From: an uncultured Puniceicoccaceae bacterium
GTDB taxonomy: Bacteria; Verrucomicrobiota; Verrucomicrobiia; Opitutales; Oceanipulchritudinaceae
Assembly: GCA_963933835.1 (NCBI GenBank)
Contig: CAWVVV010000001.1
Coordinates: forward strand, 64,001 to 128,000
Direction: 5' to 3'
Length of the DNA stretch: 64,000 nucleotides
The translations under genes were made by a program, and so were the position numbers. Below are positions 11,494 to 12,944 of the stretch, piece after piece. Under the pieces are notes generated by a model. That model ran no database searches. It was given only the letters and a program-made list of their open reading frames with translations, and was not told the DNA's origin. Within the stretch, counting starts at the first letter, position 1; each line of letters opens with the position of its first letter.

Positions 11494-12944
11494 CTAGTCG
11501 ACGAGGTAGCCCCAAGAGCCGTTGGCCTGGACGTTTGCCTCTGGCAGATACATCCAGCTATCAATCGAGAAGATCCAGATCCACGATCCGGCTCCCACGT
11601 AGACCGAGCCGAGAAAACTTCCGGTGTCAGCAAAGCCGTTTTCATCCACAGGATAGCCCGCCCAATTCGGAGCGAGGTTGACCCCGGTGAGTTCGAGCCA
11701 GTTGAGATTGAGGTCATCATCGCCGGGGACATTCAAAGTCACCCGTAGAGTCACTTCTCCAGCAGGTAAAGTGATCTCCCAAGATTAACCGTTGCCCAAT
11801 TTTGCCAATCTCCAGTGGCGGTGAATCCGCTCGCACTGAGATCAACTCCACTATCCGTGGTCAATGTAACGCCGGCAGTGCCATTCGGACTAGCGTAGCG
11901 CAGATCAACAGCGTAAGTGCCCGCTTGAGCCACATTCAAAATGTATTCACCCCAGTCCCCATCAGTCAGAAAGCCGAGGTTCAGACCACCGCCTACATCC
12001 ATCGCGACTTCTGTTCGCAGACCAAGTTGATCGGTATAGTCCTCCAGCTCGAGGCGGCCTGGCACGTCGATAATCTTCGGCGGAATGACAATTCCACCCT
12101 CCGTTTCATAAACGCGGACATAGTCGACGTTCATTTGTAGTGGGAATGTAAGACGTGAAGAAACGGCTCCACCAAAGTTACCACCCACAGCAACATTCAA
12201 CAGAATGAAATGCTCATGATCGAAGACCCATTGATTCGGCGAGACGTCGGCAGGGGTTGCCGTGTGGTAGAGCACGTCATCCACATACCAGAGGATCAGA
12301 TCCGGACCCCACTCTATCCAATAGGTGTGATACTCATCGGATACTGGCGCACCAAAGTTCACGATATTTCCGAAAGCCTCTCCGCCTGAATAGCCCGGAC
12401 CGTGAATCGTTCCAAAGATCTCATTAGGCACGCGTCCTACAAATTCCATGATATCGATTTCGCCACTCTGTGGCCAACCGACAGAAGGAATATCCGAACC
12501 TAGCATCCAAAATGCCGGCCAAATTCCACTCCCTGCAGGCACCTTGATCCGCGCTTCAATCCGCCCATAAGTCCAGTCCCACTTCCCCTGCGTTTTCATG
12601 CGCGACGAGGTATAATCGTAGCCGTTAAAAGGCTCTTTGTGGACCTCGATGACGAGCTCGCCCTCTTCGATTCGGACATTCTCGGTGCGGTCGGTGTAAT
12701 ACTGTAGCTCCGCATTGCCCCAGCCGCAAAGGTTAGGACAGCCATCACCAATCTCGAAATTCCAGTTTACAGGATCCGGCGAACTCCCATTCGGAAGATC
12801 AAACTCATCCGCCCAGACTAAATCCCAACCGTCCGGGTCTTGAGCTGCCAATGGAGCCGAAAAATACAGTGAAGCGGCAAGCGCCAGGCCTAGCATCCGC
12901 TTATGCTCGAAGATAGGTTTCGAGGGGGCGATTTTGGGTAACAT
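11494..12944 (-). pseudogene. Secreted GH16 beta-glucanase + CBM6-like module + aromatic C-terminal domain; 1-nt frameshift at ~11778
   Basis: Signal peptide ending APLAA-QDP; WPAFWMLG and GEIDIME GH16 motifs; TGDWQNW CBM6-like motif. Adding one G to the GGG run joins NLG to EITLPAGEVTLRVTLN and the 11494-11754 ORF. Confidence 0.88.

What the first reader, a model, noticed from the sequence alone, without database searches (positions are those of the whole stretch)
11494..11667. Same ~58-aa aromatic C-terminal domain ends two unrelated proteins: candidate lineage-specific sorting/anchoring signal
Seen: the GH16-CBM6 enzyme ends WAGYPVDENGFADTGSFLGSVYVGAGSWIWIFSIDSWMYLPE...NGSWGYLVD*. The unrelated ORF ending at 46053 ends WEGYVVDNNGWVDTGAHLGFINVNFEPWFYSLKLDRFFFVAD...GGTWLYMTK*. 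The shared pattern is W-x-G-Y-x-V-D-x-N-G-[FW]-x-D-T-G-xx-L-G-xxx-V-xxxx-W...G-x-W-x-Y-xxx-stop, at the extreme C-terminus after a short linker. Known: strictly C-terminal domains on diverse cargo are how T9SS-CTD, PEP-CTERM and similar sorting tags behave, and this motif matches none I recognise. Inference: an export or surface-attachment tag for Opitutales extracellular proteins.
Basis: partly seen in the sequence, partly recalled or inferred. Interest (0 to 1): 0.8.

Follow-up and report, generated by a model that had tools for sequence, protein, structure and literature searches.

The report
Uncatalogued tryptophan-rich tail domain, Puniceicoccaceae exoproteins
A small, tryptophan-rich, all-beta domain found in no domain catalogue ends many unrelated secreted proteins in one family of marine Verrucomicrobia, and it most likely holds those proteins on a surface rather than acting as a simple export tag.

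Summary
Window 11497-11667(-) and 46056-46238(-) encode the same ~58-aa module (BLASTP E=1e-9).

A profile finds 12 copies in 10 ORFs of this 1.94-Mb genome, and the last copy always ends 2-10 aa before the stop. It also finds 925 cluster representatives among 1.84 billion proteins.

Of the best 150 hits, 140 end within 10 aa of the C-terminus and 83 carry two copies. Cargo is very diverse and mostly carries signal peptides.

The module is confined to one family, Puniceicoccaceae: 26 of 29 family genomes, 0 of 16 other families of the order, and 0 of 395 other genomes of the phylum.

There is no Pfam, NCBIfam, PDB-sequence or PDB-fold match, although the AlphaFold models are confident (pLDDT 83 and 90.5).

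Tandem, N-terminal, internal and cargo-less secreted forms show an autonomous binding module, not a terminal tag. Relatives place it on GH10, GH16 and GH95 enzymes beside TonB-dependent receptors.

My reading is a lectin-like surface-retention module (0.45). The function is untested.

The scan has already noted other, apparently different, uncatalogued C-terminal modules in other Verrucomicrobia.

The parts
11497..11667 (-). Copy 1 of the tail domain (57 aa; stop codon at 11494-11496).
   Evidence: Translation. HMM domain E=4e-21. 73% identical to the tail region of the intact ortholog P0073.
11668..11784 (-). End of the CBM6 module and a short linker, in the same frame as the domain but out of frame with the GH16 ORF.
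   Evidence: reads EITLPAGEVTLRVTLNVPGDDDLNLNWLELTGVNLAP. It aligns to P0073 from residue 391.
11778..11780 (-). Frameshift site: a G run where the GH16-CBM6 frame and the CBM6-end/domain frame meet.
   Evidence: Sequence. P0073 aligns to one frame up to residue 390 and to the other from residue 391.
11751..12956 (-). GH16 catalytic domain plus most of CBM6, with a signal-peptide-like N-terminus. The ORF ends early at 11751-11753 because of the frameshift.
   Evidence: Pfam Glyco_hydro_16 at 2e-26 and CBM_6 at 2.6e-12. 68% identical to P0073 over 390 aa.
46056..46238 (-). Copy 2 of the tail domain (61 aa; stop codon at 46053-46055).
   Evidence: Translation. HMM domain E=2.6e-20.
46239..46454 (-). 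About 70 aa of beta-rich sequence between the conserved giant-protein region and the domain. It has no counterpart in the giant-protein family.
   Evidence: The alignments to P0182, P0183 and P0179 stop at window 46455 or 46422. The homologs instead end ...SYSGN.
46455..47411 (-). Region homologous to a widespread family of unannotated giant Verrucomicrobiota proteins (55-74% identity).
   Evidence: None of the 120 homologs carries the tail domain.
47414..47560 (-). The same giant-protein family, read in a different frame. This marks a frameshift, so the gene is degraded.
   Evidence: tblastn with P0182, P0183 and P0179 matches frame -2 here and frame -1 downstream.
47561..48231 (-). Upstream remnants in several frames, including a signal-peptide-like stretch. 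No homology to the giant-protein family was detected.
   Evidence: Sequence, ORF fragments, and no tblastn match.

Best explanation
The element is an autonomously folding, acidic, tryptophan-rich all-beta module of about 59 aa. It is specific to the family Puniceicoccaceae. It is fused, usually as the very last domain and in one or two copies, to Sec-exported proteins of many unrelated kinds.

I propose that it works as a lectin-like retention module. After export, it would bind non-covalently to a component of the cell's own envelope, most likely a lineage-specific surface glycan such as LPS or capsule. This would keep endo-acting glycoside hydrolases, glycan-binding proteins, LRR and cadherin-type adhesins and other exoproteins on the cell surface, next to the TonB-dependent receptors that import the products.

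Shown here: the family, its architecture, its taxonomic range, its cargo, its gene neighbourhoods, its confident fold prediction, and the lack of any catalogued relative.

Inferred: binding itself, the ligand, and surface localisation.
For: (1) It behaves as an autonomous module.
- The AF2 model of one copy has pLDDT 83.1.
- The AF2 model of a tandem pair has pLDDT 90.5 and pTM 0.82, which implies a fixed two-copy unit.
- 83 of the best 150 hits have two copies, with a typical linker of 9-14 aa.
- About 9 of 150 have it N-terminal or internal. Examples are P0064 (signal peptide, module, LamG) and P0069 (signal peptide, two copies, fn3-like).
- P0029, P0049, P0050 and P0148 are a signal peptide plus module(s) only.

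(2) Its composition is typical of glycan binders.
- Trp is 9.0% against 2.0% in the cargo, and aromatic residues make up 20.7%.
- Mean net charge is -5, and 227 of 233 copies are negative.
- W52 is 97% conserved, G50 95%, G20 90% and T15 86%.

(3) Its role is general, not tied to one substrate.
- Cargo includes GH16+CBM6, GH10, GH95, GH88, PL6-like, esterases, CBM9 and CBM96.
- Cargo also includes LRR, CAP, cadherin, CotH, beta-propellers and CxxCH proteins.
- The GH16 enzyme already has a CBM6.

(4) Its range is narrow.
- It is in 26 of 29 family genomes.
- It is in 0 of 16 other families of the order.
- It is in 0 of 395 other genomes of the phylum.
- This fits a lineage-specific ligand better than a common environmental polysaccharide.

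(5) Its gene context in relatives is PUL-like.
- G012: Plug/TonB-dependent receptor, then GH10-CTD, GH10-CTD and an unknown CTD protein.
- G011: receptor, unknown CTD protein, GH16-CBM6-CTD.
- G006: unknown CTD protein, then receptor.

(6) It occupies the position of a known localisation domain.
- 26 of 120 GH16 homologs end in this module.
- Three homologs of the same GH16-CBM6 cargo (P0318, P0319, P0335) end in the T9SS Por_Secre_tail instead.
Against: - No binding, ligand or localisation was tested.
- No envelope component or gene co-varying with the module was identified. Neighbours of the ten copies in this genome are housekeeping genes.
- A strongly acidic module would not bind anionic LPS by charge.
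- Cargo-less secreted copies are as easy to explain as free lectins as they are as anchors.
- The strong preference for the extreme C-terminus, with a tail of 0-2 aa in most proteins, is also what an export signal would show.
- The replacement by a T9SS CTD in Bacteroidota fits a secretion signal equally well.
- The signal-peptide counts rest on a home-made rule, not a trained predictor.
Confidence: 0.45

Rival explanations
1. The module is a sorting or export signal. A dedicated, still unknown outer-membrane secretion or attachment machinery of Puniceicoccaceae would recognise it, and might cleave and replace it, as the T9SS does with its CTD.
For: - 140 of the best 150 hits end within 10 aa of the C-terminus, and the tail after the domain is mostly 0-2 aa.
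- Cargo is diverse and signal-peptide enriched.
- The module is restricted to one family.
- The same GH16-CBM6 cargo carries the T9SS CTD in other organisms.
Against: - Tandem copies occur in 83 of 150 hits.
- Genuine N-terminal and internal copies occur.
- Secreted proteins made only of the module exist.
- No conserved neighbouring machinery was seen in 8 loci of this genome or in 10 loci of relatives.
- There is no sequence match to any known sorting domain.
Confidence: 0.2
2. The module is a new carbohydrate-binding module or lectin aimed at an external target, such as algal cell-wall or particle glycans. It would bring enzymes and adhesins to the substrate rather than to the cell.
For: - The composition is Trp-rich and acidic.
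- It occurs in tandem and at variable positions, as CBMs do.
- Free secreted two-copy forms resemble small lectins.
- Many carriers are CAZymes in PUL-like loci.
Against: - It is found on enzymes for unrelated substrates: GH10 xylanase, GH16 beta-glucanase, GH95 and PL6-like.
- It is also found on non-CAZyme cargo: LRR, CAP, cadherin, CxxCH proteins.
- It co-occurs with CBM6, CBM9 and CBM96.
- Confinement to one bacterial family is unusual for a CBM that targets a common polysaccharide.
- 140 of 150 C-terminal placements is stricter than is usual for CBMs.
Confidence: 0.2
3. The module is a protein-protein docking domain, working like a dockerin. It would plug carrier proteins onto a surface scaffold or directly onto the large TonB-dependent receptors encoded next door.
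For: - It is mostly C-terminal and sits on many enzymes, as dockerins do.
- In relatives it lies next to 975-1298-aa Plug-domain receptors in 3 of the 10 loci examined.
Against: - No repeated cohesin-like partner was identified.
- In this genome none of the ten carriers lies beside a receptor.
- The predicted fold is all-beta, with no dockerin or EF-hand features.
Confidence: 0.1

Closest known systems
T9SS C-terminal domain (Por_Secre_tail, PF18962 / TIGR04183) of Bacteroidota
   Same: It is a small beta domain at the extreme C-terminus of many unrelated signal-peptide proteins of one lineage. It occupies the same position on the same GH16-CBM6 cargo (P0318, P0319, P0335 against P0073).
   Different: - There is no sequence match, and no T9SS-CTD structure appears among the fold-search rows.
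- It is often tandem, sometimes N-terminal or internal, and sometimes cargo-less.
- It belongs to a different phylum.
Non-covalent cell-surface anchoring modules (SLH, CWB2, choline-binding repeats, GW modules). This comparison is recalled from general knowledge.
   Same: These are lineage-restricted, often repeated, aromatic-rich modules. They tether diverse exoproteins to a cell-envelope polymer and usually sit at one end of the protein.
   Different: There is no sequence match to any Pfam model of these families. The host is a diderm verrucomicrobium. The ligand is unknown. The predicted fold matches none of them.
Carbohydrate-binding modules (for example CBM6, CBM9 and CBM96, found in the same proteins)
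   Same: It is a small beta module rich in Trp and Tyr, appended to CAZymes, and it can be duplicated.
   Different: - It matches no CBM model in Pfam.
- It sits on non-CAZyme cargo as well.
- It is restricted to one family.
- It is almost always the last domain.
Other uncatalogued C-terminal modules of Verrucomicrobia noted earlier in this scan (e1-2819588, e1-4645293)
   Same: The situation is the same: a ~60-75-aa beta module ends many unrelated secreted proteins and is absent from Pfam and NCBIfam.
   Different: - They are described as ending in an aromatic-aromatic-basic motif and as fn3-like.
- The sequence look-up found no look-alike of the present module.
- The present profile finds nothing in 395 genomes of other Verrucomicrobiota families.
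- Some GH16-CBM6 homologs (P0311, P0313, P0314, P0336) end in a different unannotated tail...FLRLKV. This may be that other module, but I did not test it.

Membership tests
T9SS CTD (Por_Secre_tail PF18962 / TIGR04183) | Sequence match to the family HMM | tested here: not met
   Pfam scan of all 12 copies at E<=10 gave no such hit. NCBIfam scan of 31 copies at E<=1 gave none.
T9SS CTD (Por_Secre_tail PF18962 / TIGR04183) | Seven-stranded Ig-like beta-sandwich fold | tested here: inconclusive
   The models are all-beta with 5-7 short strands. Foldseek gave a best E of 4.6 and 1.1, and VIA gave a best Z of 3.8 and 3.3. No T9SS CTD was among the rows.
T9SS CTD (Por_Secre_tail PF18962 / TIGR04183) | Single copy, at the C-terminus only | tested here: not met
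   83 of 150 hits have two copies. About 9 of 150 are N-terminal or internal.
T9SS CTD (Por_Secre_tail PF18962 / TIGR04183) | The genome encodes T9SS core proteins | tested here: inconclusive
   SprA_N (PF14349) was not found in G000, but the control genomes did not ring either.
PEP-CTERM / exosortase substrates | A short tail with a PEP motif, a transmembrane helix and a basic cluster | tested here: not met
   The consensus of 233 copies has no PEP motif, no hydrophobic helix and no Arg cluster. The predicted structure is all beta strands. Two exosortase genes do exist in G000, so that system is present but uses a different signal.
Dockerin (type I/II) | Duplicated Ca-binding EF-hand-like helical segments; match to the Pfam dockerin model | tested here: not met
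   No Pfam hit. The models contain no helix of 4 or more residues.
Known CBM families held in Pfam | Sequence match to a CBM model | tested here: not met
   No CBM hit for the module itself. CBM_6 matches only the preceding region.
Known CBM families held in Pfam | Demonstrated carbohydrate binding | not testable with these tools
   This needs binding assays.
Any solved structure family | Sequence or fold relative in the PDB | tested here: inconclusive
   The profile against PDB sequences gave 0 hits at E<=10. No fold match reached Foldseek E<=0.001 or VIA Z>=5.

The most novel reading that the evidence does not exclude
The module is the recognition and attachment signal of a so far unknown outer-membrane protein export or surface-display system, specific to Puniceicoccaceae. 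It would be a functional counterpart of the T9SS CTD that evolved independently in Verrucomicrobiota, with a fold not represented in the PDB.
Probability: 0.15. Interest if true: 0.85.

Novelty: new variant of a known kind. Interest (0 to 1): 0.6.

Why it matters
Puniceicoccaceae are among the marine Verrucomicrobiota that digest complex algal polysaccharides. How these diderm bacteria keep their first-acting enzymes at the cell surface is not known. They have no SusD-type lipoprotein system and no T9SS signal on these proteins.

One uncatalogued module marks up to about 60-70 exoproteins per genome. That gives a direct handle on the question in three ways.
- It predicts the surface or extracellular proteome of the family.
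- It offers a candidate display tag for these organisms.
- It adds a confidently predicted small beta fold with no PDB counterpart.

It occurs in at least one named cultured species (records named Oceanipulchritudo coccoides), so the hypothesis can be tested at the bench.

Together with the earlier notes of this scan, it suggests that different Verrucomicrobiota lineages each evolved their own C-terminal localisation module.

Tried and rejected
- Pfam and NCBIfam scans of the module gave only noise: DASH_Dam1 at E=0.08 and two NCBIfam rows at E=0.24.
- A profile search of PDB sequences gave 0 hits at E<=10.
- Foldseek and VIA searches with both models gave only weak, heterogeneous rows: PipX, lipocalins, barrel fragments, PDZ, OCRE, beta-trefoils and a choline-binding module at E>1. 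I do not read these as relationships.
- The ESM Atlas returned only unnamed Verrucomicrobiota clusters.
- Complex prediction on two copies of the single module gave no verdict (score 0.18, below the mark), so it is evidence neither for nor against dimerisation.
A 3-sequence alignment gave only 5 loci, which were useful for names.
- The neighbourhoods of the copies in this genome showed no shared partner gene.
- SprA_N was not found, but the control did not ring, so this is uninformative.
- Four literature searches found no paper on this module. One search found no paper holding Puniceicoccaceae, C-terminal and CAZymes together. I saw only the search listings and read no paper.
- I suspected that a CxxCH protein (G000 C2:396675-397576) is frameshifted. 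I could not confirm this against its paralog, which shares only the module and the CxxCH site.
- I considered a trimeric-autotransporter-like membrane anchor or an OMP beta-signal. I rejected both because the strands are not amphipathic in the membrane sense, the module occurs N-terminally and in tandem, and it does not end in an aromatic residue.
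Full report
**1. The observation**

- Window 11497-11667(-) and 46056-46238(-) align over 58 residues with 31% identity, BLASTP E=1e-9.
- Neither piece matches any Pfam or NCBIfam model at E<=1.

Two details were missed.

The 401-aa GH16-CBM6 ORF (11751-12956, -) stops at 11751-11753. The rest of CBM6 and the tail domain lie in another frame.
- The intact 485-aa ortholog P0073 aligns to the first frame up to its residue 390 (68% identity). 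It aligns to the second frame from residue 391 (73% identity).
- This places a one-base frameshift at the G run at 11778-11780.

The ORF ending at 46053 is a composite.
- Residues 1-295 are 55-74% identical to a widespread family of unannotated 750-2140-aa Verrucomicrobiota proteins.
- None of the 120 best members carries the tail domain.
- Those proteins end in a conserved ...SYSGN tail, which is replaced here by about 70 aa plus the domain.
- tblastn shows a frame change between 47414-47560 and 46455-47411.
- Further upstream there are only fragments in several frames.

So both window copies sit in damaged genes, unless the assembly is wrong at these sites.

**2. The family in this genome**

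The window is C1:64001-128000 of a 1.94-Mb genome in 10 contigs, 97% complete.

An HMM built from the two copies was iterated to convergence over 37,739 six-frame open frames. It finds 12 copies in 10 frames, and in every one the last copy ends 2-10 residues before the stop.

The carriers are as follows:
- the GH16-CBM6 enzyme;
- the composite ORF;
- a Glyco_hydro_cc + CBM6-like enzyme (484 aa, intact, with a signal peptide);
- a BspA-type LRR protein with two copies;
- a 386-aa unknown protein with two copies;
- two CxxCH-motif proteins;
- a DUF5050-type propeller;
- an NHL/SGL propeller separated from its copy by an in-frame TAA;
- a 93-101-aa ORF that is little more than the module.

Four carriers are clearly intact and have signal peptides. 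Three are visibly disrupted. One is probably frameshifted, but this is unconfirmed. Two have no recognisable signal peptide.

Their neighbours are housekeeping genes with nothing in common.

**3. The family at large**

The 12-copy profile (A2) finds 925 representatives at E<=0.001, and 285 at E<=1e-10, among 1.84 billion 50%-identity cluster representatives.

I examined the best 150, a set biased towards two-copy proteins because their scores add.
- 137 end within 5 aa of the C-terminus, and 140 within 10 aa.
- 83 have two copies and 67 have one.
- The inter-copy linker is mostly 9-14 aa. In 5 proteins the copies are 204-572 aa apart.

The exceptions are genuine architectures, not gene-calling fusions.
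- P0064 is signal peptide, module, LamG.
- P0069 is signal peptide, two copies, fn3-like domain.
- P0026 and P0131 have two internal copies followed by CBM9.

P0029, P0049 and P0050 are a signal peptide plus two copies. P0148 is a signal peptide plus one copy. None of the four has any cargo.

Cargo:
- Of the first 118 of the 150 (the number that fitted one call), 32 have a Pfam family at E<=1e-5.
- These families are GH16+CBM6, GH95, chondroitinase-B-like, beta-helix, SASA, BD-FAE and GDSL esterases, CBM9, CBM96, BACON, LamG, F5/8-C, Big_2, fn3, cadherin, CARDB, CotH, CAP, LRR, FG-GAP/ASPIC, PD40 and DUF5050. The other 86 have none.
- The 122 proteins with at least 100 aa outside the module fall into 71 BLASTP single-linkage clusters, the largest with 25 members.

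Signal peptides:
- A strict home-made rule passes 63 of 126 M-start proteins. It passes 209 of 1501 background ORFs of this genome.
- A looser rule passes 104 of 126 against 683 of 1501.
- The strict rule visibly misses several obvious signal peptides, and some proteins are truncated.

Public names refer only to the cargo: "endo-1,4-beta-xylanase", "CAP domain-containing protein [Puniceicoccaceae bacterium]", "hypothetical protein".

**4. Taxonomic range**

- Among 40 relatives, 21 of 24 genomes of the same family have the module, with up to 74 matches in G004 and 60 in G023. None of 16 genomes from 16 other families of the order has it.
- In an even sample of the phylum, 5 of 5 family members have it, and 0 of 395 genomes from about 70 other families do, at E<=1e-5.
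- In the family at >=85% completeness, 26 of 29 genomes (G000 included) match at E<=1e-6. The three without are G002 (same genus as the window, 91% complete), G009 (92%) and G010 (89%).
- G001, also of the same genus but only 69% complete, also has none.
- Record titles name the family as Puniceicoccaceae. Carriers include proteins named as from Oceanipulchritudo coccoides and "Puniceicoccales bacterium CK1056".

**5. Properties of the module**

From 233 copies, the consensus is T-W-A-G-Y-P-[IV]-D-E-D-G-W-V-D-T-G-D-W-L-G-W-L-N-V-x-x-A-P-W-V-Y-S-Y-x-L-x-x-W-I-Y-L-P-E-E-x-V-x-x-x-G-A-W-x-Y-V.
- W52 is 97% conserved, G50 95%, G20 90% and T15 86%.
- The protein usually ends 0-2 residues later, most often in R, K, N, P or Q.
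- Median length is 59 aa.
- Trp is 9.0% against 2.0% in the cargo, and aromatic residues make up 20.7%.
- Mean net charge is -5, and 227 of 233 copies are negative.

AlphaFold2 models:
- One copy gives an all-beta model, pLDDT 83.1 and pTM 0.61.
- A tandem pair from G018, with a 21-row alignment, gives pLDDT 90.5 and pTM 0.82. Each copy has six or seven short strands, and the high pTM implies a defined packing of the two copies.

Neither model has a convincing PDB neighbour. Foldseek gives a best E of 4.6 and 1.1, and VIA-align gives a best Z of 3.8 and 3.3 over 48,161 chains. The profile finds no PDB sequence at E<=10. The ESM Atlas returns only unnamed Verrucomicrobiota clusters.

A missing match does not prove a new fold, but nothing known is close.

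**6. Context in relatives**

I looked at ten loci. Five were chosen because hits cluster there, which is a bias.
- G012: a 1298-aa Plug-domain (TonB-dependent receptor-like) protein is followed by GH10-module, GH10-module and an unknown protein with the module.
- G011: LacI, GH2-like, a 975-aa Plug protein, an unknown protein with the module, and GH16-CBM6-module.
- G006: GH88, an unknown protein with the module, a 1263-aa Plug protein, an SSF transporter, and more CAZymes.
- G023: two two-copy proteins, GH95-module, then GH95 without the module, GH130-like and GH106.
- Another locus: LacI-type, an unknown protein with the module, CBM9-module, and an unknown protein with the module.

The unknown ~300-390-aa carriers next to receptors belong to different cargo clusters.

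This is the layout of polysaccharide-utilisation loci. In these, endo-acting enzymes and glycan-binding proteins work on the cell surface next to the importer.

**7. Positional equivalence**

Of the 120 best homologs of the GH16-CBM6 cargo, 26 end in this module, either as GH16-CBM6-module (~465-489 aa) or GH16-module (~330 aa). Three others (P0318, P0319, P0335; 43-46% identical in the cargo) carry the T9SS Por_Secre_tail (PF18962). Several others end in a different unannotated ~90-aa tail.

Different lineages thus put different terminal localisation domains on the same enzyme.

**8. Interpretation**

What is shown: a large, uncatalogued, family-restricted domain family that marks Sec-exported proteins and is nearly always last.

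The tandem, N-terminal, internal and cargo-less forms, together with the confident compact models, show that it is a self-sufficient folded module. They speak against a signal that works only as a free C-terminal tag.

Several lines point to glycan binding with a general localising role, not a substrate-specific one:
- the Trp-rich composition;
- the spread over enzymes of unrelated specificity and over non-enzymes;
- the co-occurrence with classical CBMs;
- the confinement to one bacterial family.

The PUL-like context suggests the place is the cell's own surface.

I therefore favour a non-covalent surface-retention (lectin-like anchor) module, at confidence 0.45. The rivals are:
- a true export or sorting signal of an unknown machinery (0.2);
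- a substrate-directed CBM or lectin (0.2);
- a dockerin-like protein-docking module (0.1).

G000 has two exosortases and one secretin. The module has none of the PEP-CTERM features. A test for T9SS was uninformative. A homodimer prediction gave no verdict.

**9. Comparison and novelty**

The module works like the T9SS CTD, SLH, CWB2 or choline-binding anchors, dockerins or CBMs in being a lineage-marked terminal module on diverse exoproteins. It fails the sequence tests for all those that could be tested, and it has no fold match.

Four literature searches found nothing on it (listings only, no paper read).

This scan had already noted other uncatalogued C-terminal modules in other Verrucomicrobia (e1-2819588, e1-4645293). 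These seem to be different families, for two reasons: the sequence look-up found no look-alike of the present module, and the present profile finds nothing outside Puniceicoccaceae.

I class it as a new variant of a known kind. Interest is 0.6. The finding is solid, gives a usable marker of the exoproteome of ecologically important marine polysaccharide degraders, and can be tested in a cultured species. Its function, however, is inferred only.

Noticed in passing
window 11778-11780 (-): There is a one-base frameshift in a G run. It cuts the GH16-CBM6 laminarinase-type gene off from its last CBM6 strands and the tail domain. The orthologs P0073 (485 aa) and P0153 (463 aa) are intact.
   Followed up: yes
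window 46455-47560 (-): This is a fragment of a very widespread, highly conserved (55-74% identity) family of giant 750-2140-aa Verrucomicrobiota proteins. The family has no Pfam or NCBIfam annotation and ends in ...SYSGN. Here the fragment is frameshifted, lacks the N-terminal part and is fused to a foreign tail. The family itself looks worth a study of its own.
   Followed up: partly
G000 C3:12088-12090 (L005:3989-3991): An in-frame TAA separates a signal-peptide NHL/SGL beta-propeller (298 aa) from its tail domain in the same frame.
   Followed up: partly
G000 genome as a whole; G001, G002: At 1.94 Mb this is the smallest genome in the family sample, where the others are 2.1-5.3 Mb. At least 3, perhaps 6, of its 10 carrier genes are damaged or truncated. 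The two other genomes of the genus have no copy at all. The module may be in the course of being lost in this genus. Assembly error has not been excluded.
   Followed up: partly
G000 C3:132219-133043 (L006:3068-3844) and C2:396675-397576 (L002:3076-3977): Two small secreted proteins have a single CxxCH (haem-c-type) motif and end in the tail domain. The intact one follows a YceI-like gene and an unknown 302-aa gene. The two share only the motif region and the module.
   Followed up: partly
L019 (G012:C11), L020 (G006:C2), L021 (G011:C1): These are PUL-like loci with very large Plug-domain receptors (975-1298 aa) next to GH10, GH16 and unknown carriers of the module. At E<=1e-6 only the Plug domain of these receptors was recognised by Pfam.
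   Followed up: partly
P0311, P0313, P0314, P0336 (GH16-CBM6 homologs): These end in a different unannotated ~90-aa tail (...GDGTETVTVR...FLRLKV). It may be the other verrucomicrobial C-terminal module noted earlier in this scan.
   Followed up: no
L001:846-1481 (+), L021:11688-12626 (-): Rhomboid-family protease genes lie 1.5-4 kb from carrier genes in two genomes. This is probably coincidence.
   Followed up: no
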